Shown here piece after piece: positions 1 to 55,864 of a stretch of 64,000 nucleotides of DNA; positions within the stretch are counted from its first letter, which is position 1, and the number at the start of each line of letters is the position of its first letter. The DNA lies in contig JANQMA010000012.1 in assembly GCA_028280285.1 (NCBI GenBank), positions 24,817 to 88,816 of the forward strand, written 5' to 3'. Source of the stretch: Candidatus Omnitrophota bacterium (lineage in GTDB: Bacteria; Omnitrophota; Gorgyraeia; Zapsychrales; Zapsychraceae). The notes below the pieces were generated by a model. The model was given only the letters and a program-made list of their open reading frames with translations. It was not told where the DNA came from and did no database searches. The position numbers were made by a program, and so were the translations under genes.

Positions 1-3000
1 ACCTGCTCGCCCAGGATTATTTGCTCAAACAGCTTACCGCGTCACTGATGTATCCGGAAGGTGAGTTGGGGCAAAAATTCTGGGAACGTATTAGGCAAAC
101 AGATGCTGGATCCTTGATGCTAGATGCTAGATCCGAAATCCAGGATCTAGGATCTAGCATCAAGGATCTAACATCTATGTTCAATAAAGTCTGGATTGTT
201 CCGAGCAAGGCGGTTGTCTATGAACGCGATCAGGTGGCGTATGTGGGGGAAGTTGAGTTTAAAGTGATGTTGGAAAATGACTATTTAGCGTATAGCGAAC
301 AGCGGATAGCGGATAGTAGTGTTCAGCAATCAGCTGATAACTCTCTAAACGCTAACCGCTATACGCCAAACGCTGAAATCATCCGCGAAGTGATCATTCC
401 AGCTCTTGAGCAAGAAGTGAATCAGGGCCAACATTTCGCCAAGCTCCGCCAAATACAACACTCGCTCATTCTTGCCACATGGTATAAACAAAAACTGAAA
501 GACTCACTTTTAACGCAAGTCTACGCTGATCAAAACAAAACCAAAGGCATCGATATTGCTAATCCACAAGAGCAAATCCAAGGTATTTATGACCAATACA
601 CCGAAGCCTTCAAGCAGGGTGTTTATGATTATATTAAGGAAGAATACGATCCGGCTACACAGCAAATTATCCCGCGCAAGTATTTTTCTGGAGGAATCGA
701 TGAAGCGGCTTTAAAGGAAACAATTTCCGTGCAAGATCTTGCTGCGATGACCAATAAAGATGACTTTATGCAGGGTGAACCCTATGGAGCTCAAGTGCGG
801 TTAGATTCGGCGGTGTTGTCAAAAGCAAAGAAACAGCATATTTACGACAGACTGGAGTATTTTATTCATGATATAAAAAGTAAACATGCCGTAGTTGAGG
901 TCAGTATACCACGTATAGCTGAAGATATTATTGCTGGTTTTGACGATGAATATCAAGACTTTAGAGACAGTTACGGGAATCTAATAAGTATTAGAGATGG
1001 CATGCACAAAACTATTGAAAAACGGGGAGATGTGAAATTTATATCAGATAGAAGATATACCAACTTAGAAAAAACATACAAAGAACTGCTTGCGAATTTA
1101 GAACTGATTAGAAGCCAGTCATTAAAAAATCTGGTTAATCAAAAGAAGATTCAACTACAATCAAAACAAAATATTATACGCATCAAAAAAATGGTGGATG
1201 AGATATATTTTATATTAGGCTCTGTTTTAAACGATGAACTAATCATTAGATCGTTTATGGCCGAAGATCTTTTCCCTTCCAGCCAGAACATTCTACCGCA
1301 ACAAAGAGAAGGGCTTAAGATTTATAAGAAGATAAAGGGCGATAATTTTGAAGTGCAGGGGGATAAGGTCTATTTGAAAAGGGTTTTGGATAATTTGCTC
1401 AAAAATGCGGCCCAGGCGATCTATGATAATGATAGTAAAGAGAGAAATATTACAATTACAATGCGGAAAATGGGACGGCGTTATTATGAAATACGTATGA
1501 AAGACACGGGGGCAGGAATTGTGAACACAAGGCTTTCTAAAATATTTAACCGCGGAGAGTCTAGTAATGGAGTTGGTCATGGGCTGGGTTTGCCTTTTGT
1601 TGCGGATGTTGTTAAAAAACATAATGGCCAGATTCGTGTGCGCAGTAGTTTAGGCAAGGGTGCGGAATTTATCATCACACTGCCAAGGAAAAAAGAGGAT
1701 ATTGAAAGGAATGGTGCGGATTTTAAAATTACGTATGAATCTATGGACGCGGCGGGTTTATCGGAGGCAGTAGAGGAGGATGTTTCTGATAGCTGGATGT
1801 TGACAGAAGATAGGGAAAGAATGGCAGCTCTTGAAAGAGACTTGGAAAAAAGGACTGGTGATGTCGAAGAGAAAAAAGAAGCTGTTGCACAGTTTAGGCG
1901 ATTTTTAAAAGATGTGCATGAAGGTCAAGCAGTTGTCGATGGAGAGGGGCGCCTTATTGGTCAAAACATGATGGCATTATTACATGAGGATATGACAGAA
2001 ACCCATATGCAGCAATGGGCACTTGCCCACTATAAAGATGATGTTTACGCAAATCGCTTACGGGCGCTTATCATTTTGACATCATTTTTTCATGATGATG
2101 TCCTGGGTAATACATTAACGGCTTTCGGTCAAAGTCTGGTTTTTGTTAATGGGGTTACAGAGCAACAGACTAAAGAATTTAAGCAGTTGTCAAGTAAGGT
2201 TAATAACAGTCTTAGTCAACTAACGTACAATCGATTTTCCACGGTGAATTTAAAGGATGGGTTTCAAAAATTACAGGCGTTGATTGAAGAAGTACACGCA
2301 GTCGACTTACCGCAATTACGTGAAACGTTTGGCGAAGAATTTTTTAACATAAATAAAATTTTTGACGAATACTTTTTAAAAATCGAGAATGTTTTTACAG
2401 AATTTAACGAGCAGCTGTCGCATCTAGATCCGGCGAGTTTGAGCGATGAGGATGTGCAGCGGATTTTAGGGATGGATGATCCTGTGATTAACGGGCTTCA
2501 AAAACATTTGGATAGCCCCGTGCGTAAGGCAACTAATGAAGGGTTGATTGTCCCGAAAGTATGGAGCGGGCTGGATAAACAGATTAATATTGTTCAAGAG
2601 ATTAGAGGCGTCATTGCAGAGGCTATAAAAGATGTTCAAGATCCGTCGGGGGCTGATCTCGATCCACGGAAAGTTATCATTCAGATTCCTTCCAGTTTAG
2701 AGCAGTTGCGCTACGATAACGGAAAAGTTTTTTGGCGGGCAGTAAGAGATATTGATATCGATTTATTTTTACCGTATGGATGGCAAGGAGTAAGTATCAC
2801 AAGAGGTAATAAATCTGTAAGATTGCCTGCATATCTCAAAGAACGGTTAGTAGATTATGAGAATAAGCTTGGGATGTCGGAAGGCAAAAAGCTTGATTTA
2901 AATATCATCGAGTTAACACCGTCGACTTTTTTAGAGTATATTGAGGATGGCAAGTTGAAATTTCATTGGGCTTATTTATTCCTTCCGCAAAATCTATATT

Positions 3001-6000
3001 ACGGTGATGTTGAGCATTTAGAAAATTACATTAAGCAAAGGGTAAAAGATGTCGGTATTAATGATTATTGGAAAGCTGTTTTAAAGGGCTACGCTATGGT
3101 CTACAGCGAGGCTGAAGATTATTTTGAAGAACGTGATTATGATAAGGTGCTTAAACGTTTGCTTATCGCGGCCCATTTTCGTCAGGATAAAGAGGCAATC
3201 AAGGATATACGCAACCGTATGATGCAACGTTATGGAGAAGCTAAGCATGTCCGTTTTTCCAGAGAATTTGTCCGAAAGTACTTGGACCATGCCAAACCGC
3301 CTTATGATATACAATGGACCACAGAACAGGCAGATTCCGCAAATCTAAAAAAAGAAGACGTGGATCAAGTTACATGGAGTGTTTGGCAGGAAATATTAGA
3401 TTTATTTGAACATGGACATTTTAAAGCACAACAATTAGACCGAAACTGGTATGAGGAAAAGTTGAAAAATAAAAAAGTGACTGTAAGTTTATTGAGAAAA
3501 ATCAAACGGGAAATAGATGAAGATATTAATTGGGTGGATGAAAAAAATAGAATTAAAGAAGGTCTGATTAAATATAAAGGAGATATTCATAAAATTAAAA
3601 TGGAGTTTTCTGATGTTTATATGCATAGCACACGAATTGCAAATTTTATTAAACAAAATGAGGAGTTATACGAATTATTTATGAAATATTGGAAGACTGC
3701 GATGTTAGAAGAGAAGAGCGCTTTTCTAAAAGCAATAGAAAAAACTATTCCAAAATATAGGCAATGGGATAAGTACGGGAGGCAGTATTATTTTAATGTA
3801 TCTGAAATTACCGCCAAATTTGAAAGATGGTTTGAAGATTGGGACACCCCGAAAACAAGACCGCTAAAGGATTTGGTAAAAAATGAGATAAAAGAAAGAA
3901 CCAACTGGTTAATAGCTATTCGTTATATAACTAAAACTATTAATGGGGAACAGATTGACTTTCAAGGTGAATACGGGATAGAAGGAACTTCAATAAAGGC
4001 ATTTGCACGTACTTTAATTAAACGAGATAAAGAATTAAGCGATAAGATTAAAGGCAAAATATTATGGTATATAGGACGTAGTGCTAGAGATGCGGCTTCT
4101 TTTTCGGATAAAGATTTGAAAAAATATGATATTAAAGTGTTAAAAGGCGGACAGGATCGTCTGGTAGATGACCCGTGGCCTAACTCTATTTTTTTCCATG
4201 AAGTGATTGTATACATTTATGATACAGAGGGCAGACTTCTTTTGACAAGAAATAATGATGCGACAGAACAGGACGATTTGGAAATTTTTATTAGGATTAA
4301 AGATAATTTACTTGATGACAACAAGTTGTCAGCTGAAGATATTGCAGAGAGGATACTTTACGAAGATTTTCGATTGCAAGCCAATAGGGATTCTTTTGTT
4401 CAATTAGATACTGAGTATCTAAAAGATCCAGTGAATAATAGACGTAATAGGTTTCATAAAAGAACGCAGCTTATTTATCCAGCTGCCTCCGATGAGTTGC
4501 GACGAATGCAAGAATATTATAATAAACGGAAGTTTGATGCGTTGTGGTTAATATCTGTGGATCATCTCGATGATTTTAAAAGGGACCATGGGGATGTTTT
4601 GGGCGGCTCTAAGGACATTTATGAGTCGGTTAAGTCCAAGGTATTCAAACAGATTGATAAAAATGTTTTTGAACCTAAACGTAAACAGCAGGAAGCAGAT
4701 GAATTAGAACAGTATAGACAAAAATTATTTCCTGAGTGGGAGATTCGAGAGTCAATAATTCAGGATATTAAGGCAAAAGTTGCCGTGTCATTAACTCCAG
4801 ATGACACTATAAAAGGAAAAGGGGCAAAAATAAAATCTTGGTTGCTTAATCGAATAAGAGAAGATGCTTCATTGTTGGATATTTTGAATCCTTTTTCGAA
4901 TAAAAATTTGGCAGAAATATGGGAAGTTAGTGAGCAATCAGTTAGAGCTATTATGAGTCAGTTGTTCCTAAGTTATCCATCTAAACGAGATTTAGGGTGG
5001 AAGAGGCATGCTTTTCCTGACCAAGTTTATACATTTGATGATTATGTAAAGAGCAAAGGAGATAATCGACAGTATGATTATTTAATTTCTTATTATGCAG
5101 AGAAATTTGGCGTCGAACCAATGTCTTATGAAGAAGCTAAAGCGGTTTATGAAAAAGCAGATGAAGAACAGAAAGAGGGAAATAAAAAGAGTAAGAAAAC
5201 TTTAGAAGAAATTGATCAGACACATCCGGCAATTAGAGAATACATTGCGCCACGCGTGGCCCGCCAATTGAGGCTAGGATCGGATGTAATCGAGCCCCTT
5301 GTGGATGCTTTGGTTTATGAGACCTATCATGGGGTATATGATCTTGATGAGATCTTCAAATTATTAAATATGGGATCACAGGATAGAAAATTTGTTAGGG
5401 CAAGGTGGTTTACGCAGTTACCAATTAATCCAGACGAAGTAAGAAGTAAGTTTATTAAAGAGGGTATTATTAAAGACGATGAGGCCGCGCTGATTTCACT
5501 TGAGGATTTTAAAGACTTATTACCTGAGTATTTTGTTGAAAATAGTGATAATCCTTATGAGCTTAACCGTAATTTTTATCATACTTACGGTGTAAGAAGT
5601 CTTAGGGGCCAATTTTATCAAGGTGTTTATCAGTTGCGTAAAACGTTAATAAATGAAAAGACGCATAGTTTATCGCGTTATTTAGAACTGAACGCTCCAG
5701 AGCAAAACTTTGAGGATTTTGGTTTTGATGAATCAGATATTTTAAGAATTAAATTAATAGGACGAAAATTAGGTTTATGGACATTTTATTTCGATCAAGA
5801 ATCTCTTGCTATCACTGAATTTAGAATTAGTGAAGACATGTATAATAAGCACATAGTCATGTATGAAGATATGGATCAGTTTATGATGCAGATAGCTAAA
5901 AGCATATTTAATGTTTTTTCTATAGATACAGCCGGAGATGAATTAATTCCTTTTGCGAATTTTGTTTATGAGACAAGCCCTATTGATCAATTGTGGTATG

Positions 6001-6569
6001 CTCTTGAAGAGGATGGGCATATTAGGGATAAATCCAATTGGAAATTTAACTTCGCTGCTTTAATTCTTGCGGTGAGAATAGCCATTAAGCATCGTATTAC
6101 GTCTGTAGAGGCGATTATAGAGTTACAAAAATATTTGGAGACCACTAATGAGGAAGACCTCGATGCAGATACACTTATTACATTAGGAACTTTAGGCTTA
6201 AGTGAGTATGCAAAAAATGTGAAATATGATGAAACAAATAGAAAAGTGTTAAAACAATTTTCTTATGCTGATGCTGCAGCGTTAGAAGAAGCACCTGGAG
6301 GGATTGATTTGACGCCGCAGGCGTGGGATTTGGATACAGTTGGTGCCGAGGGACAGAATTGCGCCGATGATGAGCCTGATTCAGGGTGTATCCGGCTCAA
6401 CTTTCCACCTGAGCAGATTGAGCAGATGAGAAACAGTATTGACGGCTTTGTGCCGGTGATTATCAACTTCCAACCTATCACCAACCTGCCGCTCTTTTTA
6501 GGGCTTAAAGATACCGAAATGCCACAACCAGTTGAAATAAAAGAAGAATTAGCTGTTTTACGGGAATGA
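1..6569 (+). CDS. Giant multidomain protein (C-terminal 2182 aa visible; 5' end lies upstream of the window) with an embedded HATPase_c/GHKL ATPase domain
   Basis: The frame is open from nt 3 to the stop at 6567-6569, so the first in-window TTG at 21 is not the true start. An internal segment has the N-box (DNLLKNAAQA), G1 (KDTGAGI), G2 (GHGLGLPF) and G3 (GKGAEFIITLP) motifs of histidine-kinase-type ATPases. The remainder has no family I can name from sequence. Confidence 0.7.
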   Translation, partial: LLAQDYLLKQLTASLMYPEGELGQKFWERIRQTDAGSLMLDARSEIQDLGSSIKDLTSMFNKVWIVPSKAVVYERDQVAYVGEVEFKVMLENDYLAYSEQRIADSSVQQSADNSLNANRYTPNAEIIREVIIPALEQEVNQGQHFAKLRQIQHSLILATWYKQKLKDSLLTQVYADQNKTKGIDIANPQEQIQGIYDQYTEAFKQGVYDYIKEEYDPATQQIIPRKYFSGGIDEAALKETISVQDLAAMTNKDDFMQGEPYGAQVRLDSAVLSKAKKQHIYDRLEYFIHDIKSKHAVVEVSIPRIAEDIIAGFDDEYQDFRDSYGNLISIRDGMHKTIEKRGDVKFISDRRYTNLEKTYKELLANLELIRSQSLKNLVNQKKIQLQSKQNIIRIKKMVDEIYFILGSVLNDELIIRSFMAEDLFPSSQNILPQQREGLKIYKKIKGDNFEVQGDKVYLKRVLDNLLKNAAQAIYDNDSKERNITITMRKMGRRYYEIRMKDTGAGIVNTRLSKIFNRGESSNGVGHGLGLPFVADVVKKHNGQIRVRSSLGKGAEFIITLPRKKEDIERNGADFKITYESMDAAGLSEAVEEDVSDSWMLTEDRERMAALERDLEKRTGDVEEKKEAVAQFRRFLKDVHEGQAVVDGEGRLIGQNMMALLHEDMTETHMQQWALAHYKDDVYANRLRALIILTSFFHDDVLGNTLTAFGQSLVFVNGVTEQQTKEFKQLSSKVNNSLSQLTYNRFSTVNLKDGFQKLQALIEEVHAVDLPQLRETFGEEFFNINKIFDEYFLKIENVFTEFNEQLSHLDPASLSDEDVQRILGMDDPVINGLQKHLDSPVRKATNEGLIVPKVWSGLDKQINIVQEIRGVIAEAIKDVQDPSGADLDPRKVIIQIPSSLEQLRYDNGKVFWRAVRDIDIDLFLPYGWQGVSITRGNKSVRLPAYLKERLVDYENKLGMSEGKKLDLNIIELTPSTFLEYIEDGKLKFHWAYLFLPQNLYYGDVEHLENYIKQRVKDVGINDYWKAVLKGYAMVYSEAEDYFEERDYDKVLKRLLIAAHFRQDKEAIKDIRNRMMQRYGEAKHVRFSREFVRKYLDHAKPPYDIQWTTEQADSANLKKEDVDQVTWSVWQEILDLFEHGHFKAQQLDRNWYEEKLKNKKVTVSLLRKIKREIDEDINWVDEKNRIKEGLIKYKGDIHKIKMEFSDVYMHSTRIANFIKQNEELYELFMKYWKTAMLEEKSAFLKAIEKTIPKYRQWDKYGRQYYFNVSEITAKFERWFEDWDTPKTRPLKDLVKNEIKERTNWLIAIRYITKTINGEQIDFQGEYGIEGTSIKAFARTLIKRDKELSDKIKGKILWYIGRSARDAASFSDKDLKKYDIKVLKGGQDRLVDDPWPNSIFFHEVIVYIYDTEGRLLLTRNNDATEQDDLEIFIRIKDNLLDDNKLSAEDIAERILYEDFRLQANRDSFVQLDTEYLKDPVNNRRNRFHKRTQLIYPAASDELRRMQEYYNKRKFDALWLISVDHLDDFKRDHGDVLGGSKDIYESVKSKVFKQIDKNVFEPKRKQQEADELEQYRQKLFPEWEIRESIIQDIKAKVAVSLTPDDTIKGKGAKIKSWLLNRIREDASLLDILNPFSNKNLAEIWEVSEQSVRAIMSQLFLSYPSKRDLGWKRHAFPDQVYTFDDYVKSKGDNRQYDYLISYYAEKFGVEPMSYEEAKAVYEKADEEQKEGNKKSKKTLEEIDQTHPAIREYIAPRVARQLRLGSDVIEPLVDALVYETYHGVYDLDEIFKLLNMGSQDRKFVRARWFTQLPINPDEVRSKFIKEGIIKDDEAALISLEDFKDLLPEYFVENSDNPYELNRNFYHTYGVRSLRGQFYQGVYQLRKTLINEKTHSLSRYLELNAPEQNFEDFGFDESDILRIKLIGRKLGLWTFYFDQESLAITEFRISEDMYNKHIVMYEDMDQFMMQIAKSIFNVFSIDTAGDELIPFANFVYETSPIDQLWYALEEDGHIRDKSNWKFNFAALILAVRIAIKHRITSVEAIIELQKYLETTNEEDLDADTLITLGTLGLSEYAKNVKYDETNRKVLKQFSYADAAALEEAPGGIDLTPQAWDLDTVGAEGQNCADDEPDSGCIRLNFPPEQIEQMRNSIDGFVPVIINFQPITNLPLFLGLKDTEMPQPVEIKEELAVLRE
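1340..1690 (+). other. HATPase_c (histidine kinase-like ATPase) domain inside the giant ORF
   Basis: The peptide runs GDKVYLKRVLDNLLKNAAQAI...MKDTGAGI...GVGHGLGLPFVADVVKKHNGQIRVRSSLGKGAEFIITLP. No recognisable H-box/DHp dimerisation segment lies immediately upstream. Confidence 0.6.
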
Positions 6570-6777: not shown

Positions 6778-7059
6778 ATGAAACGAGTACTTACACTAAC
6801 AGTAGCGTTGGCCTTTGTTTTTGCATGTGCAGTTCCGGCGTTTGCCTATGATATGGAGCGCCCAGTGAAGAAAATCACTGAAGGAACAGTAGATGTAATC
6901 AAATCACCACTTCACCTTGTTGAAAAGCCAATTGATGGCTTAAAAAACCATGACTATCCTGTCATTGGTTTCATGAAAGGTCTTCTTAAAGGACCATTTC
7001 ATACACTGAAAAAAGCAGGTGGTGGCGTGGTAGATATAGCTACTTTCCCAATTAAGTAG
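6778..7059 (+). CDS. Small secreted hypothetical protein (~93 aa)
   Basis: A strong SD (AAAGGAGG) precedes ATG 6778. The N-terminal signal peptide is MKRVLTLTVALAFVFACAVPAFA. No domain was recognised. The longer ORF-track start at 6727 lacks an RBS. Confidence 0.5.
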   Translation: MKRVLTLTVALAFVFACAVPAFAYDMERPVKKITEGTVDVIKSPLHLVEKPIDGLKNHDYPVIGFMKGLLKGPFHTLKKAGGGVVDIATFPIK

Positions 7060-7105: not shown

Positions 7106-7140
7106 CCCGGGCCGGCTCCCTAGGGAGCCGGTCCTTTTTT
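7106..7140 (+). terminator. Rho-independent terminator
   Basis: A GC-rich hairpin CCGGCTCCC-TAGG-GAGCCGG is followed by TTTTTT, downstream of the small secreted ORF. Confidence 0.7.
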
Positions 7141-7305
7141 GTCCATTTCTTCAGTGTTTACCATAATTAAACTTTGTGCTATGATACCGCCCTGAAATTC
7201 AAGAGCCCTTTGCAAACCTATGGGGTTACGATGGGAAAGTCCCTATTAAACCTCATAGGTTGTGATGGCATTCTAATATATATTACTTAAAAAATAGAGG
7301 GACGT

Positions 7306-34762: not shown

Positions 34763-34836
34763 GCGCCCGTAGATCAACTGGATAGATCATCAGTCTTCGG
34801 AACTGAGGGTTGGGGGTTCGAATCCCTCCGGGCGCG
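34763..34836 (+). tRNA. tRNA-Arg (anticodon TCG)
   Basis: It folds by hand into a cloverleaf: acceptor GCGCCCG/CGGGCGC, D stem GATC/GATC, anticodon stem TCAGT/ACTGA with loop CTTCGGA, and T stem GGGGG/CCCTC with loop TTCGAAT. CCA is not encoded. Confidence 0.8.
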
Positions 34837-34845
34837 TTTTCTATT

Positions 34846-36426
34846 ATGAATTTTATTAAATTACAAAAAGAGCAGATATTTTTTTGTCTTGTTTTTTTCT
34901 TCATCGCTGCGATCAATTTGCTCATCTATTATCCGTCCTTCTTTCATATCCCGCGGTCTGATCAGCTTATTTACCTTGCCAACACCGCCGACCAAAAGGA
35001 TTGGTTGAGTTTGGCTTTTTCCCATTATGGATATGATCGCGTTGAACATTATTTCTGGGGATGGGATGCGCGCCTTTTCCGTCCCATGTTCTTTTTTATT
35101 TTAGGGACGATGAAGTATTTGTTTCACTATGACTTTGTTCTCTGGCAGGTGACTGTCTTTGTTTTTCATTTATTTGTGCAGTGGCATTTGCTTAAGCTGC
35201 TTGCACGTTTTGGGTCATTGGTTCTTGGCGGCTGCTTAACGCTTTGGTTTTCTTCTTTGATTGCCGGTATTGAAATGGTGACATGGCACCACATCGGTCC
35301 ATATCTGATTTTTGTAAGCCTTATTTTAATGGCACTCGACTGCATTTTTGAAATCATACAATCACAAAAAATAACGTCCAAAAAGCTTATCAAACTCACA
35401 CTATTTTTATTGATTGCCTGTTTTATTTATGAAATTGGGTGTATCTTGGGTGGAATATTTTTTCTTTCAATTATGGCCCTTTATTTTAGATTTAAAAAAG
35501 AGGGTAAAGAGCTGCCGCCGGTCATGATGGCCTTTTGTGTTTTGCTGCCAAGCATCTTTTATGTATTTACGTATTTTTTCGATTTATACATACGCAAAAC
35601 GGATTTTATTCAGGCGGTGGACACGGCCGATGCGTTTGATATTTTAAAAACAATGAAAGCATTCTTTTTCACTTTATGGTGGATGATTTATACAGGTAAT
35701 TTTGCTGCATTTGTCGATATTAAAGTTCTTCAGCGCACCATTTTTAAAGTGACCGGCTTTCATCAGTTTCAATATTTTATGAATCTGACGACTCTTTTAA
35801 AGGTCTACATGATTGCTGTTCTTAGTTTGTGGGTGAGTGGATTATGGATGATTGTGGGCAGTATTGTGAAGGGGGCCTTGAAGAAAAGATGGTTATTTTT
35901 GCTTATCCTGTTTTCTGCGGTTTTTATTCAGATATTCATTATTATTATTGGACGCACCAATTTAAGCGGGCTTCTACCGACACTGATTAATAATTCCTAT
36001 TATGGGTATTTTGTGTGGATTTATTTGGTTGTCTTGATTGGTTTTTTAACGGCAGAATATTGGAGGACCTTAAACAAATTTAATCCAGCCAAAATTATTA
36101 CTGCTTTTTTGATTTTTGGTATTGTTGGGGTCAATGGTAAAATAGTCTATGATGCTAATAAACAGCGTGCACACAATGAGAAAATCAGGTATCATTTGAT
36201 AAAACAGGTAAGGGTTCTTGAAAAGGAGTTTGGGGAGAACTTTTCTTTTGGGATTCAACCGATTATGTCGCCACCCATGACATGGGTTAAACCCAAGACA
36301 GGTAAAGGAGAAAAAGAGTTTAAATACCTGGAGCTGCTTTATCCGCGTCAATTTGATTTTTTTAATCCTCAATATGTTTTTGTTTTGACTCCAGATGGAA
36401 CCATTATGAGAGGAAAGCGGTATTAA
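34846..36426 (+). CDS. Polytopic membrane protein (~526 aa), hypothetical
   Basis: At least 12 TM helices. The start is set at MNFIKLQ because the ORF-track start at 34810 overlaps the tRNA. Confidence 0.45.
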   Translation: MNFIKLQKEQIFFCLVFFFIAAINLLIYYPSFFHIPRSDQLIYLANTADQKDWLSLAFSHYGYDRVEHYFWGWDARLFRPMFFFILGTMKYLFHYDFVLWQVTVFVFHLFVQWHLLKLLARFGSLVLGGCLTLWFSSLIAGIEMVTWHHIGPYLIFVSLILMALDCIFEIIQSQKITSKKLIKLTLFLLIACFIYEIGCILGGIFFLSIMALYFRFKKEGKELPPVMMAFCVLLPSIFYVFTYFFDLYIRKTDFIQAVDTADAFDILKTMKAFFFTLWWMIYTGNFAAFVDIKVLQRTIFKVTGFHQFQYFMNLTTLLKVYMIAVLSLWVSGLWMIVGSIVKGALKKRWLFLLILFSAVFIQIFIIIIGRTNLSGLLPTLINNSYYGYFVWIYLVVLIGFLTAEYWRTLNKFNPAKIITAFLIFGIVGVNGKIVYDANKQRAHNEKIRYHLIKQVRVLEKEFGENFSFGIQPIMSPPMTWVKPKTGKGEKEFKYLELLYPRQFDFFNPQYVFVLTPDGTIMRGKRY

Positions 36427-38152: not shown

Positions 38153-39781
38153 ATGTTGAAGAATTTGACTGTCTTTTATCTAACCTTTCTGCTTTCCATT
38201 TTGACCGGGACAGGCGCACTGGCCCAGGTAAACATTCAAGGGGAAATCATTAATATGGATGCCATTAACGGCTACGCTTTTAGTGATTTAACTCAAGATT
38301 ACCTGTCTAAAGGAGACATTGTCCAAATCCTTGATGGGAGAGACTTGATCACTTATCTAGAGGTTGTAGAGGTTAAGTCCACATTTAGTCGCTTGGGATT
38401 TGCCGGTCAGATGACTCAAAAAGAAGATTTTCAAACGATTGATATTGGGAATCGTGTGGTGATCGCAGACAAGGCAAAGGAAGTAGCACGCATTGATCAA
38501 GACAATCAACAGTATCAAAAGAAAGTTGATAGTCTTAATCAAATCATTACGGCACTTACGCAAGAATTGGATAATATGAAGAGTTTAGGTTCTGCCTCAA
38601 AGCTCAAAAAAGACCTGGATGAAGTGCAAAAATCAAACGAAAAACTCAATACCAAACTATTATCATTTCAAAAACTTCTGCAAGATAAGACGGCGGATGT
38701 GGCGCAGATAAAAGAAGAAAATACTGTTTTAAGAGATAAGGCAAAGCGGTTAGAAAAGAAGTTGCAAGAAAAAGATCAATTTGATCGTACATCATTGGAA
38801 GCTAAACTTTCTGAAGCTCAGAAAGATCTTCAGACCATCGATCAATTGTCCCGTCAAAAGATTGCTCTTTCGGATAGCTTGGCGCTTGCGAATAAAAAAA
38901 TTGTTGAACAAGAAAAGATTATTGATGAACTTAAGGGGCGTTTGGCCAAACAAGATGAGGAAGTAAAGCTTTTCAATGACAAGCTTTCCAAATATAAAGC
39001 TCAAAGAGATGCGGCTCAATTGGAGCTGCTTGAAGGGATGCGGCAGGTTAAAGAAATAGAATCATCGATTCCTGGTTTAATCAAGGCTGTGCGTCAACCT
39101 TTAGAAGACAGACTTGCGCTTTTAACAGAAGAACTTGATGTTGCCCGGTTGAATATTAAAGAGGCCAATCTCCGGTTGTCGAAAGTTTCGGGTGAAAAAA
39201 ACAATTTACGCAATCAACTGGTCTCCATTGAAGAGAATCGAGGTAGTTTACATAAACAGTTTGAACAGGTAACTACGGAGCTGAATGAGAAGACAGATAG
39301 TTTGCAAAAAATGCAGGACCGCCTTACTGCTATGAAAAAAGAAAAAGCGCTTGTAATGGCCTATACGGCCCAGTTGGAGGACAGGAATAAAGGTTTGGAG
39401 AATAAAATTGGTAAAAAAGGTAACATGGAATCTGATTTACGGGAAATGGAGGAGAAAAGGGACTTTTTAAAGCAGCAATTGGCTATTTTAAATGACCGGA
39501 CGAATAATATTGATGCGATTACCAGTAAGTTAAAAGAAGTGCAGGAGCCATTTACCGACGAAATTGCGCGGCTGGAAGCAGATGTGGGACGCCTGAAAAA
39601 AGAGTTAGATGAAAAAAATATCGTTATTCAGTCTCTACGTAAAAGCCGTGGGGCAGAGACGATTATGCTTGATATGGATGCTGTTAATGTGGCCTTTCAA
39701 GAAGATCAGGTTGATATGAAAAAGTTATTATCCATTAAAGAAAGAATTGAAAAATCCTTTGATGGTTTATCTAATCCATAA
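38153..39781 (+). CDS. Secreted protein with an N-terminal beta-rich domain and a ~430-aa coiled-coil
   Basis: Signal peptide, then heptad-rich sequence (QELDNMKSL...LEKKLQEKD...) over more than 400 aa. Confidence 0.5.
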   Translation: MLKNLTVFYLTFLLSILTGTGALAQVNIQGEIINMDAINGYAFSDLTQDYLSKGDIVQILDGRDLITYLEVVEVKSTFSRLGFAGQMTQKEDFQTIDIGNRVVIADKAKEVARIDQDNQQYQKKVDSLNQIITALTQELDNMKSLGSASKLKKDLDEVQKSNEKLNTKLLSFQKLLQDKTADVAQIKEENTVLRDKAKRLEKKLQEKDQFDRTSLEAKLSEAQKDLQTIDQLSRQKIALSDSLALANKKIVEQEKIIDELKGRLAKQDEEVKLFNDKLSKYKAQRDAAQLELLEGMRQVKEIESSIPGLIKAVRQPLEDRLALLTEELDVARLNIKEANLRLSKVSGEKNNLRNQLVSIEENRGSLHKQFEQVTTELNEKTDSLQKMQDRLTAMKKEKALVMAYTAQLEDRNKGLENKIGKKGNMESDLREMEEKRDFLKQQLAILNDRTNNIDAITSKLKEVQEPFTDEIARLEADVGRLKKELDEKNIVIQSLRKSRGAETIMLDMDAVNVAFQEDQVDMKKLLSIKERIEKSFDGLSNP

Positions 39782-53625: not shown

Positions 53626-54300
53626 ATGGCCGATAAAGAAAGCGCACAAGATAAGCTAGCTAAGATGATACAGGCATCTGCCAAAAGTGCGGATGCACCT
53701 GCAGATGATCCCGCGGCGGCATTAGCAGCTGCAACAGGAGCCCAACCTGTTGGAGCGGGAGCAAAATCAAAAAAGGGCGCCAAAAAGAATCCTGCTGAGC
53801 TTATTAAACTATTGAACGTCGTTTTGATTGTGGCTGTTGTGGGCTGTTTGGGGCTTTTATTTAATCAGTTTGCGGTAGGCAATAGCTTGATCAATTCAAG
53901 CAGCGAATTTGGGGCGGACATCACGGTTAAAAAAGGACTACGTCCTAATTTAGCCCTACCAACGGTTCAGAGACTTTCGTACTATCTTGCCGATATTAAT
54001 AGCAGAAATATTTTTCAGCCGTTTCAAAGAGAGGTTGAAGAAACGGTGACAAAGGTTTCCGATACAACGCGGGCAGTCGCCCGTAAAACACGCGATTTTC
54101 GTCTTGTTGGGGTGGCTTGGTTTGACTCGGTTGATTCCGCCTCAGCAATGATTGAAGATACAAATAAAAAAGTCACTTATTTTCTTCGCAGAGGCGAAAA
54201 AATAGGGGATGTTTCTGTAAAAACCATTTATGCCGACGGTGTAGAGCTAGGCTATCAAAATGAGGAGATAATAATACAATATGACAAATCTCAACTATAA
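53626..54300 (+). CDS. Membrane-anchored protein, possible secretin-associated PilP/GspC-like component
   Basis: An Ala/Pro/Lys-rich low-complexity N-terminus, one TM helix (LLNVVLIVAVVGCLGLLF) and a periplasmic beta-rich domain. It overlaps the secretin gene start by 20 nt. The functional assignment rests on context only. Confidence 0.3.
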   Translation: MADKESAQDKLAKMIQASAKSADAPADDPAAALAAATGAQPVGAGAKSKKGAKKNPAELIKLLNVVLIVAVVGCLGLLFNQFAVGNSLINSSSEFGADITVKKGLRPNLALPTVQRLSYYLADINSRNIFQPFQREVEETVTKVSDTTRAVARKTRDFRLVGVAWFDSVDSASAMIEDTNKKVTYFLRRGEKIGDVSVKTIYADGVELGYQNEEIIIQYDKSQL

Positions 54301-55864
54301 AATCAAAATGGTTGTTGCAATGGTTGTGTTTTTTGGTTTTGCAACGGCACTCTTGGCGCCTACAGTGTCGCAGGCCAGATCGCCTAAACCCATTGTGATA
54401 AAAAGTATGAACGAAGCAATCTCCCGGCGTATGCAAAGAGAGATCACATTGGATGTTCGCGATATGAATATCGTTGATGTTATCAAATTTCTTGCGCTGA
54501 AAGGAGATTTCAACGTTGTTATCAGTCCAACCGTAGAAGGCCGTGTAACGGTTCTTTTGAATAATGTCAGCATTGAAGATGCGATGGATATTGTCATTAT
54601 TTCTAACCGTTTGGCGTATAAGGTTGAGAATAATATTGTCCAGGTTTTTACAGATGCTGAGTATGAAGCCATTTACGGCAAACGGTTCTCTGATAAAACT
54701 CAGGTGCATATTGTGCGTTTACAATATTCCAAACCAAGCTATGTGTTAGCGGCGCTCGACAATATCAAAAGTAATGTCGGTAAAATCATTATTGACGAGG
54801 ATACGGGTTCTGTTGTGATGATTGATACGGCCGAAGCCATTGGGTTAATGAAAAATGCCCTTAAAGAGATTGAAAGGCCCTTGGAAACAATTACCTATAC
54901 GCTGCAGTATGCCGAAGCCGATATTGTTGCAGAGAAGCTGCGTGCACGGATTGATGCCAAAGCGGTTGGGTCTATCACGCCGGATGAGCGAAGTAATAGT
55001 TTAATTGTGCGTGCTTATCCTGAACGGACAAAAGAGGTGCTTGATATCATTAAAAAGCTTGATACCGAGACTAAAGAAGTCATGGTTGATGCGCGTATTC
55101 TGCAAATTGTTCTTAAGCCGGAATATGATGTTGGTGTTGACTGGGAAGTTGATTTTGATGGTTCTGATAATGCGTTGCGTTTTAGTAATCTCTATTTGGA
55201 TACAGCGAATATATCAAGTACGGATAACCTTGCGTCTACTTTTGGATCGATTGCTGTCGGGGATATCAGCGCAGATGACTTTACAGTCAAAATTCGTTCC
55301 CTTGAGCAAGTCAGTGATACGAAAATTTTATCTAATCCTAAAATTCTTGTAACCAATAATGAAGAAGCTAAAATTCATATTGGCGACACAGTTCCTTATA
55401 TTATCTCGACGACATCAGGGACGGGGGATAATGCGATTACCAGTGAAGATGTGCGTTTTGTCGATGTGGGACTTAAGCTTAATGTCACCCCTAAAATAAA
55501 CGATGAGGGCATGGTGACTATGCGTCTACGACCGGAAATTTCGACAGTTGTTGCTCAAATTACTTCTGAAGGCGGCGGAATTCCGCAGGTTAACAAAACT
55601 GAAGTTGAAACAACTGTTATGGTGCAGGACGGCAATACAATTATCATGGGTGGCCTTAAAAAAGATGATAAGGTGCATGTGAAAAAAGGTTTTCCTGTCC
55701 TCATGGATTTGCCGTGGTTTGGCCCGGTTTTTGGCCGCACAGATGATGAAATCACAGAAACAGAAATCGTTATCTTTATCACACCAACGGTTGTATCAGG
55801 TTATGATACATACGTTGATTATGAAGGAGATATAAAACCGTTTAAAGAGTATAGCATTAAATAA
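54281..55864 (+). CDS. Secretin (type II secretion / type IV pilus GspD/PilQ family)
   Basis: Signal peptide, N-terminal secretin_N-type domains, and the conserved C-terminal secretin domain (GGIPQVNKTEVETTVMVQDGNTIIMGGL...VPVLMDLPWFGPVFGRTDDEITETEIVIFITP). Confidence 0.8.
   Translation: MTNLNYKIKMVVAMVVFFGFATALLAPTVSQARSPKPIVIKSMNEAISRRMQREITLDVRDMNIVDVIKFLALKGDFNVVISPTVEGRVTVLLNNVSIEDAMDIVIISNRLAYKVENNIVQVFTDAEYEAIYGKRFSDKTQVHIVRLQYSKPSYVLAALDNIKSNVGKIIIDEDTGSVVMIDTAEAIGLMKNALKEIERPLETITYTLQYAEADIVAEKLRARIDAKAVGSITPDERSNSLIVRAYPERTKEVLDIIKKLDTETKEVMVDARILQIVLKPEYDVGVDWEVDFDGSDNALRFSNLYLDTANISSTDNLASTFGSIAVGDISADDFTVKIRSLEQVSDTKILSNPKILVTNNEEAKIHIGDTVPYIISTTSGTGDNAITSEDVRFVDVGLKLNVTPKINDEGMVTMRLRPEISTVVAQITSEGGGIPQVNKTEVETTVMVQDGNTIIMGGLKKDDKVHVKKGFPVLMDLPWFGPVFGRTDDEITETEIVIFITPTVVSGYDTYVDYEGDIKPFKEYSIK

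What the first reader, a model, noticed from the sequence alone, without database searches (positions are those of the whole stretch)
1..6569. Giant protein (>2182 aa) with an isolated histidine-kinase-type ATPase domain and otherwise unrecognisable sequence
A complete HATPase_c catalytic core (N, G1, G2 and G3 boxes) is embedded about 440 aa into the visible portion, without an obvious DHp/H-box upstream. The remaining ~1700 aa match nothing I can name. GHKL ATPases embedded in very large proteins occur in MORC-like and other NTP-driven machines. The gene is truncated by the window edge and is followed by a small secreted protein at 6778.
Basis: partly seen in the sequence, partly recalled or inferred. 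Interest (0 to 1): 0.6.

Follow-up and report, generated by a model that had tools for sequence, protein, structure and literature searches.

The report
Exported Omnitrophota capped-cargo protein with kinase core
The big gene is real: it belongs to a huge, undescribed family in the little-known bacterial phylum Omnitrophota, whose members share a signal peptide and the same head and tail but carry unrelated middles, here a histidine-kinase core plus 1,500 residues with no known relative.

Summary
Nt 3-6569 encode the last 2,188 residues of a 2,325-aa protein (P0001); the window lacks 137 residues. The HATPase_c domain is genuine and of the histidine-kinase class, not MORC-like.

1. The missing N-terminus is a Sec-type signal peptide. 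It is followed by a ~330-aa N-module shared at 50-60% identity with hundreds of Omnitrophota proteins.
2. The last ~90 residues are a second shared module (GGIDL...GFxPVIINIxP...LPLFLG). Between these caps the family carries unrelated cargo, including PGK, PGM, methyltransferases, GNAT and response-regulator receiver domains.
3. An H-box does exist. His426 (FIHDIKS, nt 867-869) is the only invariant residue outside the ATPase domain among ten kinase-bearing members, about 177 aa upstream of the N-box.

About 1,500 residues (nt 1752-6236) are an orphan. An exhaustive search of 1.84 billion representatives with 1,200 of them (aa 721-1920) found only the protein itself.

The signal peptide with AxA|Q, tenfold cysteine depletion and one paired-Cys loop argue that the protein is exported. 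Best reading: a secreted or envelope capped-cargo protein, a mid-size relative of the phylum's giant multi-enzyme proteins. What the caps do is unknown. Interest is moderate to high.

The parts
3..6569 (+). 3' 94% of the gene for a 2,325-aa protein (residues 138-2325 plus the TGA stop). The first 137 codons lie upstream of the window.
   Evidence: the translation is identical to P0001 from residue 138
3..695 (+). Visible part of the conserved N-module (P0001 aa 38-368, ending RKYFSGG). The missing part carries the signal peptide MINKAFQKSLFFRLLNIAILAVFFVTSIMSAQGLA|Q and the first 100 residues of the module.
   Evidence: All 119 homologs listed carry this module at their N-terminus at 47-62% identity by BLAST. 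There is no Pfam, NCBIfam or PDB relative. AF2 gave pLDDT 68.7 and pTM 0.63.
101..176 (.). Imperfect DNA palindrome (34-nt arms, 91% complementary, 8-nt loop) lying in frame inside a variable loop of the N-module. It encodes DAGSLMLDARSEIQDLGSSIKDLTS.
   Evidence: The region has low pLDDT.
284..370 (.). Second in-frame palindromic segment (26-nt arms, 77% complementary) in the hypervariable loop of the N-module. It encodes ...SEQRIADSSVQQSADNSLNANRYTPNA.
   Evidence: The same peptide sits at the same loop in five other family members, and the loop is 22-63 aa long across the family.
855..887 (+). H-box-like motif EYFIHDIKSKH. The candidate phospho-acceptor His426 is at nt 867-869.
   Evidence: It is the only invariant residue outside the CA domain in the alignment of 10 kinase-bearing family members (A4).
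888..1358 (+). Long helical linker, the remainder of a DHp-like region, between the H-box and the CA domain. The H to N-box distance is about 177 aa, against about 110 in ordinary kinases.
   Evidence: Some PDB and NCBIfam kinase alignments reach back to P0001 aa ~500-515 (the region aligned with CusS-like and HprS DHp helix 2).
1359..1691 (+). HATPase_c (CA) domain with intact N, G1, F, G2 and G3 boxes.
1752..6236 (+). Orphan cargo of 1,495 aa. It has no detectable homolog, repeat, TM segment or cysteine. GC3 is 0.31, against 0.41 +/- 0.04 for other genes in the window.
6297..6506 (+). Conserved C-module core: GGIDL ... paired-Cys loop CADDEPDSGC (6360-6389) ... GFVPVIINFQPITNLPLFLGL.
   Evidence: It is present at the extreme C-terminus of most of the 119 listed homologs, detected by BLAST in 112. 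AF2 on this module alone gave no stable fold, pTM 0.29.
6507..6566 (+). Variable acidic C-terminal tail. Tails after the LFLG motif are 0-50 aa long across the family.
6778..7059 (+). Small secreted protein of 93 aa, weakly TIGR04073-like. It is probably co-transcribed with the large gene but is not a conserved partner.
   Evidence: No such neighbour recurs in the 79 related loci.
7109..7144 (+). Terminator-like hairpin (11 pairs, 9 of them G-C) plus a T-run. It is the first terminator-like site after the large gene.

Best explanation
The ORF encodes a 2,325-aa protein of an uncultivated Omnitrophota bacterium. It belongs to a very large, multi-paralog family found so far almost only in MAGs labelled Omnitrophota. 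I call these capped-cargo proteins.

Every member has four parts:
- a Sec-type cleavable signal peptide (small-x-A|Q);
- a ~330-aa N-module of unknown fold;
- a hypervariable middle, the cargo;
- a ~70-aa C-module (GGIDL...GFxPVIINIxP...LPLFLG).

In this member the cargo has two parts. The first is a divergent but complete histidine-kinase transmitter core, with H-box His426, a long helical linker and a canonical ATP-binding CA domain. The second is ~1,500 residues of lineage-specific orphan sequence.

Proposed working:
1. The protein is exported through Sec, and the signal peptide is removed to leave an N-terminal Gln (inferred).
2. The two caps are the constant parts. They provide sorting, anchoring or assembly in the envelope or at the cell surface (inferred; mechanism unknown).
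3. The cargo supplies the activity, here ATP binding and probably His autophosphorylation (inferred from intact motifs).

It is thus a mid-size relative of the signal-peptide-bearing, multi-enzyme long and giant proteins already described for this phylum.

Shown: the architecture, family membership, kinase motifs, orphan status and the compositional signatures of export. Inferred: localisation, the role of the caps and kinase activity.
For: Architecture:
- All 119 listed homologs carry the N-module once at the N-terminus, and most carry the C-module at the extreme C-terminus. Nothing in between is shared, apart from weak CA-domain matches in 17 of them.
- The cargo Pfam sets are unrelated to one another: PGK, PGM, PGI, UGPase, PPDK, methyltransferases, GNAT, PP2C, SNF2, REC, HATPase_c.

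Distribution:
- There are at least 590 loci in species-representative genomes, nearly all titled Candidatus Omnitrophota.
- Several paralogs occur per genome, often in tandem.
- No gene is conserved next to them.

Export:
- P0001 has a single N-terminal hydrophobic segment and no internal one.
- Of 105 full-length members, 103 have an h-region and 93 have small-x-A followed by Q.
- Cysteine is 0.09% in the target and in the family, against 0.98% in the other window ORFs (P about 1e-7).
- C-modules carry either 0 Cys (101) or exactly 2 Cys (12), never 1.

Kinase:
- HATPase_c scores E 1.3e-19.
- The NCBIfam hits shown (best 25 of 66) and all PDB hits are histidine kinases.
- There is an invariant His in an H-box-like motif.

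Orphan cargo:
- Only the protein itself was found in 5.8e9 clusters, and in an exhaustive phmmer search of 1.84e9 representatives with 1,200 of its residues.
- Nothing was found in PDB or Pfam.
- The sequence is coding-like.

Mosaicism:
- GC3 is 0.45 and 0.57 in the caps but 0.31-0.34 in the cargo.
- N- and C-module divergences co-vary (Mantel r 0.59, 0 of 999 permutations).
- P0002 is the nearest relative in both caps, yet its cargo is unrelated.

Literature:
- Omnitrophota long proteins frequently carry HATPase_c, methyltransferase, GNAT, PGM and REC domains, and 94% have a signal peptide or TM helices (bioRxiv 10.64898/2026.06.07.730766; bioRxiv 10.1101/2023.11.21.568195).
Against: - A histidine kinase and the cytoplasm-type enzymes carried by other members need ATP and phosphorylated metabolites. 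These are not expected outside the cytoplasm.
- The signal-peptide call rests on sequence rules, not on a trained predictor or an experiment.
- The H-box is not recognised by Pfam HisKA, and the H to N-box spacing is atypical.
- A weak PDB alignment would place the canonical H position about 70 residues further downstream, at a Thr, in conflict with this assignment.
- No receiver domain is encoded anywhere in the window.
- The N-module model is only moderately confident and matched no known fold. The C-module alone did not fold. The caps' role is therefore conjecture.
- The source genome itself could not be retrieved. Phylum assignment rests on the homologs' titles.
Confidence: 0.6

Rival explanations
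1. It is an inner-membrane-anchored cytoplasmic kinase. The N-terminal hydrophobic segment is an uncleaved anchor, or is not used for export. The whole capped family then works on the cytoplasmic face, tethering ordinary metabolic and signalling enzymes to the membrane.
For: - The kinase core and the family's cargo enzymes (PGK, PGI, PGM, PPDK, PRTases, REC, HTH) are all cytoplasmic by ancestry and need ATP.
- The 2026 preprint reads nearly half of the phylum's long proteins as membrane-anchored with cytoplasmic domains.
- West-Roberts et al. note that some extracellular predictions 'seem highly unlikely'.
Against: - Basic residues precede the hydrophobic core, which predicts N-in and bulk-out.
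- A small-x-A|Q motif follows the core in 93 of 105 members.
- There is tenfold cysteine depletion, and cysteines occur only in pairs.
- P0001 has no second TM segment that could bring the bulk back inside.
Confidence: 0.22
2. It is a MORC-like or other non-kinase GHKL NTP-driven machine. The ATPase would drive conformational work by the large remainder of the protein.
For: The GHKL fold is shared, the protein is very large, and Pfam finds no HisKA domain.
Against: - All significant matches are two-component histidine kinases, for example ZraS, FixL, CusS-like, WalK and AtoS.
- The G2 box is GxGLGL and the F box is of kinase type.
- An invariant His lies upstream.
- No S5-fold transducer, or any other recognisable domain, follows the ATPase.
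Confidence: 0.04
3. The cargo is decaying or meaningless filler. On this view the 1,500-aa orphan is recently created or junk sequence kept open by chance or by polarity, the kinase core is a relic, and only the caps matter.
For: - The orphan has no homolog anywhere.
- GC3 is lower than in every other gene checked in the window.
- Many family members also have cargo with no Pfam domain.
Against: - 1,495 codons without a stop at 36% GC is essentially impossible by chance; the other frames carry 15-74 stops per 1.5 kb.
- Codon usage is best in frame.
- Amino-acid composition is that of a globular protein, with no repeats or low complexity.
- All ATP-binding boxes are intact.
Confidence: 0.08

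Closest known systems
Omnitrophota long or giant proteins ('Archaeovorins', multi-enzyme metabolic clusters; West-Roberts et al. 2023 bioRxiv 10.1101/2023.11.21.568195; Nielsen & Lui 2026 bioRxiv 10.64898/2026.06.07.730766)
   Same: - Same phylum.
- N-terminal signal peptide.
- Cytoplasm-type enzyme and signalling domains, with HATPase_c among the commonest, in proteins predicted to leave the cytoplasm.
- Large unannotated stretches and sequence-unique bodies.
   Different: - Those studies treat proteins of at least 10-30 kaa with tens to hundreds of TM helices, SecA-DEAD and C39 domains.
- This protein is 2.3 kaa, with no internal TM helix and none of those domains.
- The conserved N- and C-terminal caps seen here are not mentioned in either paper as far as I could read.
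- No protein with several N-modules ranked above the single-module hits, so giants are probably not simple concatenations of these units.
Two-component sensor histidine kinases (HisKA/DHp + HATPase_c)
   Same: - CA domain with N, G1, F, G2 and G3 boxes.
- A conserved His in an h-H-[DE]-[LIV]-x-[NS] motif upstream.
- Helix-rich region between the two.
   Different: - No HisKA Pfam match.
- The H to N-box spacing is about 177 aa instead of about 110.
- No TM sensor, HAMP, PAS or GAF domains.
- The protein is predicted to be exported rather than cytoplasmic.
- No response regulator lies within 64 kb.
- Nearest outside relatives are at most 42% identical, over the CA domain only.
Type IX secretion cargo proteins of Bacteroidota (signal peptide + variable functional region + conserved C-terminal domain)
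   Same: The logic is the same: a Sec signal peptide, variable functional body and a conserved C-terminal module of about 70-90 aa. Gln directly after the signal-peptide cleavage site is also a known feature of Bacteroidota secreted proteins (my own knowledge).
   Different: - The C-module has no sequence relative in PDB and did not fold as an Ig-like sandwich.
- There is an additional large conserved N-module.
- The presence of T9SS genes was not examined.
- This is an analogy only.
Cellulosomal dockerin-bearing enzymes and polymorphic toxin systems (Rhs, CDI, MARTX)
   Same: Constant trafficking or docking modules are combined with interchangeable payload domains, in many paralogs per genome.
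   Different: - Here both ends are constant and the payload is in the middle.
- Payloads are metabolic or signalling enzymes and orphans, not CAZymes or toxins.
- No cohesin-like partner or immunity gene is conserved nearby.
MORC, GyrB, Hsp90 and MutL GHKL ATPases
   Same: Bergerat ATP-binding fold.
   Different: There is no transducer domain, and all sequence matches are to kinases.

Membership tests
Histidine kinase transmitter core | HATPase_c (CA) domain with N, G1, F and G2 boxes | tested here: met
   Pfam PF02518 E 1.3e-19, above the gathering score. Boxes were located.
Histidine kinase transmitter core | Conserved phospho-acceptor His in an H-box on a DHp helix | tested here: inconclusive
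   His426 is invariant in 10 of 10 aligned kinase-bearing family members, within H-box-like motifs. However, Pfam HisKA is not matched, the spacing to the N-box is about 177 aa, a weak PDB alignment puts the canonical H position at a Thr about 70 residues further downstream, and no structure of this region was predicted.
Histidine kinase transmitter core | Cognate response regulator (receiver domain), usually adjacent | tested here: not met
   tblastn with the CheY and PhoB receiver domains found nothing in the 64-kb window at E < 1. Receiver domains do occur as cargo in other family members.
Histidine kinase transmitter core | Kinase core located in the cytoplasm | tested here: inconclusive
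   The signal-peptide features and cysteine depletion argue for export. There is no experimental or trained-predictor evidence.
MORC, GHL-type GHKL ATPases | ATPase followed by an S5-fold transducer domain, with sequence affinity to MORC, MutL, GyrB or Hsp90 | tested here: not met
   No such Pfam or NCBIfam hit was found. All hits are kinases.
   P0001 residues 1-35 end in ...SAQGLA|Q. The same motif occurs in 93 of 105 members.
Archaeovorin-type giant proteins | More than 30 kaa, numerous TM helices, SecA-DEAD or C39 domains, glycosyl hydrolase or transferase content | tested here: not met
   The protein is 2,325 aa, has no internal TM-like segment and has none of those Pfam domains.
T9SS cargo | C-terminal Ig-like beta-sandwich CTD recognised by T9SS | tested here: not met
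   The AF2 model of the C-module is largely coil (pTM 0.29). A profile search of PDB sequences found no hit. The presence of T9SS genes was not examined.

The most novel reading that the evidence does not exclude
The N- and C-modules may constitute a phylum-specific sorting or assembly system. It would take cytoplasm-type enzymes and signalling proteins, including complete histidine-kinase cores and receiver domains, out of the cytoplasm in a cysteine-free form. Their destination would be the cell surface, an energised extracytoplasmic space, or the prey or host cell.

The C-module, which is unfolded on its own and contains a strongly beta-prone PVIINIxP strand, could dock into an N-module or another receptor. 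This might happen head to tail between proteins, giving non-covalent counterparts of the phylum's giant multi-enzyme proteins.

On this reading the protein would be an exported histidine kinase, something without precedent.
Probability: 0.3. Interest if true: 0.85.

Novelty: new variant of a known kind. Interest (0 to 1): 0.6.

Why it matters
Omnitrophota are abundant, uncultivated nanobacteria thought to live as predators or episymbionts. Their giant proteins are a recognised puzzle because they put 'cytoplasmic' enzymes behind signal peptides.

This locus shows a tractable, mid-size form of that puzzle: hundreds of paralogous proteins of 0.4-3.7 kaa with two constant caps and freely exchanged cargo.

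The caps offer a handle (HMMs, antibodies, fusions) for finding out where these proteins go and how. The kinase core offers a simple biochemical test of whether such cargo is active.

If export is confirmed, it would mean two-component phosphotransfer and sugar-phosphate chemistry outside the cytoplasm or inside prey cells.

The 1,500-aa orphan also illustrates how much lineage-unique coding sequence these cassettes hold.

Tried and rejected
- **Retrieving the source contig or upstream DNA.** The look-up of encoding contigs had no record for P0001 or for its closest relative P0002. The genome-contig scan did not contain the source genome; the best hit was 56% identical. The listing of cluster members gave no accession or name.
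- **Testing whether the N- and C-modules fold together.** The C-module alone did not fold.
- **Conserved neighbourhood.** Clustering all ORFs of the 79 related loci found no recurrent neighbour apart from antisense shadow ORFs. The small downstream ORF is not a partner.
- **Giants as concatenated capped units.** This is rejected for now. Every listed homolog has exactly one N-module, and no multi-module protein out-scored them.
- **Internal repeats in the orphan.** None were found.
- **H-box placement.** A first reading of a PDB alignment put the H-box position at a Thr near aa 490. I set it aside after the family alignment showed the invariant His426.
- **Other copies of the two palindromic segments.** None were found in the window or in the 79 loci.
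- **Literature.** Searches found no description of the capped family.

Full report
**Observation**

Frame 3 of the + strand is open from nt 3 to a TGA at 6567-6569, giving 2,188 codons. A database protein, P0001 (2,325 aa, NCBI origin, 91-kb contig), is identical over the whole visible part. Window nt 3-6566 translates exactly to its residues 138-2325.

Pfam finds HATPase_c at visible residues 453-563 (E 1.3e-19, 71 bits, cutoff 26.4) and nothing else of significance. The N, G1, F, G2 and G3 boxes are all intact.

The reading frame is real. It has no stop in 6.5 kb, against 15-74 stops per 1.5 kb in each of the other frames. Codon usage is best in frame, and GC1 > GC3 > GC2.

**What the ends are**

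The 119 best homologs are 1.2-3.7 kaa long. They match only two parts of the protein:
- P0001 residues ~1-375, at 47-62% identity;
- the last ~90 residues, at 31-56% identity.

Each homolog has exactly one N-module, directly after an N-terminal hydrophobic segment. Most have one C-module at the very end. The stretch in between is unrelated from protein to protein.

The precomputed Pfam sets for the middles are very diverse. They include phosphoglycerate kinase, phosphoglucomutase, glucose-6-phosphate isomerase, UDP-glucose pyrophosphorylase, PPDK/PEP-utilising domains, FBPase, methyltransferases, GNAT, PP2C, protein kinase, SNF2 helicase, receiver domains, HTH, HATPase_c, or nothing at all.

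N-module motifs include KYFLASLTxP, WVNLSPYE, TEMGRDLLAQDYxLKQ, FNKVWIVP, LRQIYxSxILAxWYK and RKYFSGG.

The C-module consensus is GGIDLnP..l.Lq...G..i.f..dp..l....i.GFxPVIINIxP..nLPlfLG, followed by 0-50 variable residues.

Nearly all were in MAGs titled Candidatus Omnitrophota. Some were labelled 'uncultured Planctomycetales', and one short contig 'Lysobacterales'. Several paralogs occur per genome. Many are in head-to-tail tandem, and ORF sizes run from ~400 to more than 2,400 aa. No other gene is conserved next to them.

**Is it exported?**

- The recovered N-terminus reads MINKAFQKSLFFRLLNIAILAVFFVTSIMSAQGLA|QV. It has a basic n-region, a 16-residue hydrophobic core and a small-x-A site followed by Gln.
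- Of 105 family members with complete N-termini, 103 have such a core, 94 have a basic n-region and 93 have small-x-A followed by Q.
- P0001 has no other hydrophobic segment; the highest 19-residue Kyte-Doolittle mean elsewhere is 1.39.
- Cysteine is almost absent. There are 2 in 2,188 residues (0.09%), against 0.98% in 27 other ORFs of the window. About 21 would be expected (Poisson P about 1e-7). The family average is also 0.09%.
- The only two cysteines sit 9 residues apart in an acidic loop of the C-module (CADDEPDSGC).
- Across the family, C-modules have either no cysteine (101) or exactly two (12), never one.

Cysteine exclusion with paired exceptions is a known signature of proteins that fold outside the cytoplasm (general knowledge). 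Together with the signal peptide, I take it as reasonably strong but indirect evidence for export.

**The kinase**

The NCBIfam hits shown (the best 25 of 66) and all PDB hits are two-component histidine kinases, including AtoS, PnpS, ZraS, VirA-like, FixL, WalK and CusS-like. All lie far below the equivalog cutoffs and cover mainly the CA domain. Nothing resembles MORC, MutL, GyrB or Hsp90, and no transducer domain follows.

Seventeen of the 119 family members also carry HATPase_c cargo, and none has a Pfam HisKA annotation. I aligned ten of these kinase regions, each with the 230-260 residues upstream. Exactly one invariant residue lay outside the CA domain. It is a histidine inside H-box-like motifs:
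- FIHDIKS in this protein (His426, nt 867-869);
- FHDLNNF, VHDLGNF, VHELRSP, IHDLKNAL, FHEVNNF, RHEVGNF, QHQLGNR, FHQFRTW and SHEILPW in the others.

The distance to the N-box is about 177 residues, against roughly 110 in ordinary kinases. Some PDB alignments cover part of that interval as DHp helix 2.

I therefore read the region as a divergent but complete transmitter core, not an isolated ATPase. Two cautions apply. The DHp fold was not modelled, and activity is inferred from motifs alone.

Outside the family, the closest relatives are ordinary 400-560-aa kinases, at most 42% identical over the CA domain only. No receiver domain is encoded in the 64-kb window. Receiver domains do occur as cargo in other capped proteins.

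**The orphan**

Residues 721-2215 (nt 1752-6236) have no homolog. Three searches support this:
- a word-indexed search of 5.8 billion clusters with residues 837-2215 returned only P0001;
- an exhaustive phmmer search of 1.84 billion representatives with residues 721-1920 returned only P0001;
- PDB and Pfam gave nothing.

The region has no internal repeats. Its composition is that of a charged globular protein.

GC3 of the cargo is 0.31-0.34, lower than in 27 other genes of the window (mean 0.41, sd 0.04, minimum 0.32). The caps have GC3 of 0.45 and 0.57. The gene is thus compositionally mosaic.

Divergences of the N- and C-modules co-vary across 109 proteins (Mantel r 0.59, 0 of 999 permutations). 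The nearest relative in both caps, P0002, has unrelated cargo. This fits caps that descend, and perhaps function, together while the cargo is replaced.

**What the caps do**

This remains unknown. The N-module AF2 model is a mixed alpha/beta domain (pLDDT 68.7, pTM 0.63, 78 residues above 90). It has no Foldseek match in PDB and no sequence-profile match.

The C-module alone is predicted to be largely unstructured (pTM 0.29), despite its strong conservation. That is what one expects of a motif that folds on a partner.

The end of the N-module (YFSGG, then a hydrophobic residue, D/N and L/F/M) weakly echoes the start of the C-module (GGIDL).

**Relation to what is known**

Two preprints describe Omnitrophota giant proteins of at least 10 kaa and up to 147 kaa. 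HATPase_c, methyltransferase, GNAT, HAD, PGM and receiver domains are among the commonest domains, and 94% carry a signal peptide or TM helices. Their localisation is openly debated. Seymour et al. note that giant ORFs are poorly conserved.

The present protein shares the phylum, the signal peptide and the odd cargo repertoire. It is 2.3 kaa, lacks TM helices and SecA or C39 domains, and has conserved caps that those papers do not mention as far as I could read. No multi-N-module protein out-scored the single-module hits, so the giants are probably not simple concatenations of these units.

I therefore class it as a new variant of a known kind.

**Verdict**

The most likely account, at 0.6, is a Sec-exported capped-cargo protein with a probably active histidine-kinase core and a lineage-unique body. 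The main rival, at about 0.2, is a cytoplasmic-face, membrane-tethered kinase.

Noticed in passing
window 101-176 and 284-370: Two imperfect DNA palindromes lie in frame inside variable, low-confidence loops of the N-module coding sequence (34-nt arms at 91% complementarity; 26-nt arms at 77%). The peptide of the second (SEQRIADS...SADNSLNA..RYTPNA) recurs at the same loop in five other family members. No other copy was found in the window or in the 79 loci.
   Followed up: partly
homologs P0034, P0029, P0065, P0096 and others (N-module loop 2 and C-module loops): The hypervariable loop (22-63 aa) of many family members contains peptides that, from memory, look like in-frame translations of REP- or MITE-like palindromic repeats (e.g. 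VIPAQAGIH, GRGLIHQTQ, MDSRFRGNHN). This is reminiscent of Rickettsia palindromic elements inserted into coding genes. It was not tested at the DNA level.
   Followed up: no
window 6778-7059 and 7109-7144: A small secreted protein weakly matches TIGR04073, the exosortase-system-associated family (35 bits, cutoff 50). A strong terminator-like hairpin follows it, and none lies between it and the large gene, so the two are probably co-transcribed. It is not a conserved neighbour of the family.
   Followed up: partly
whole window: Nearly all long ORFs are on the + strand and cumulative GC skew rises monotonically (0.19 to 5.23). The 64 kb appear to lie on one replichore with genes co-oriented with replication.
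   Followed up: no
window 54281-55864: A secretin gene is present (Secretin + Secretin_N, type II/III/IV-pilus type). West-Roberts et al. report type II secretion genes near giant Omnitrophota genes. Here it lies 48 kb from the capped-cargo gene.
   Followed up: no
window 34810-36426 and 38153-39781: Two ~540-aa ORFs have no Pfam match. The second has only weak coiled-coil-type similarity to SMC and Rad50.
   Followed up: no
L072 5923-8964 and 8971-12939; also L010, L033, L052, L060, L062, L075, L078: Capped-cargo genes often sit in head-to-tail tandem with very short spacers. In L072 the two are in the same frame, 6 nt apart; in L010 they overlap by 44 nt.
   Followed up: partly
L020 (JBLINE010000094.1, titled Lysobacterales) and many 'uncultured Planctomycetales' MAG contigs: Typical family members occur on contigs labelled with other taxa. 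This probably reflects mis-binning or placeholder taxonomy rather than true occurrence outside Omnitrophota.
   Followed up: no
window 3-695, 819-6236, 6297-6506: The gene is compositionally mosaic. GC3 is 0.45 (N cap) and 0.57 (C cap) against 0.31-0.34 (cargo), while other window genes average 0.41 +/- 0.04.
   Followed up: partly
L044, L061, L024 (ORFs of 400-530 aa): Short family members consist of the signal peptide and N-module with a brief tail and no recognisable C-module. They could be minimal forms or truncated pseudogenes.
   Followed up: no
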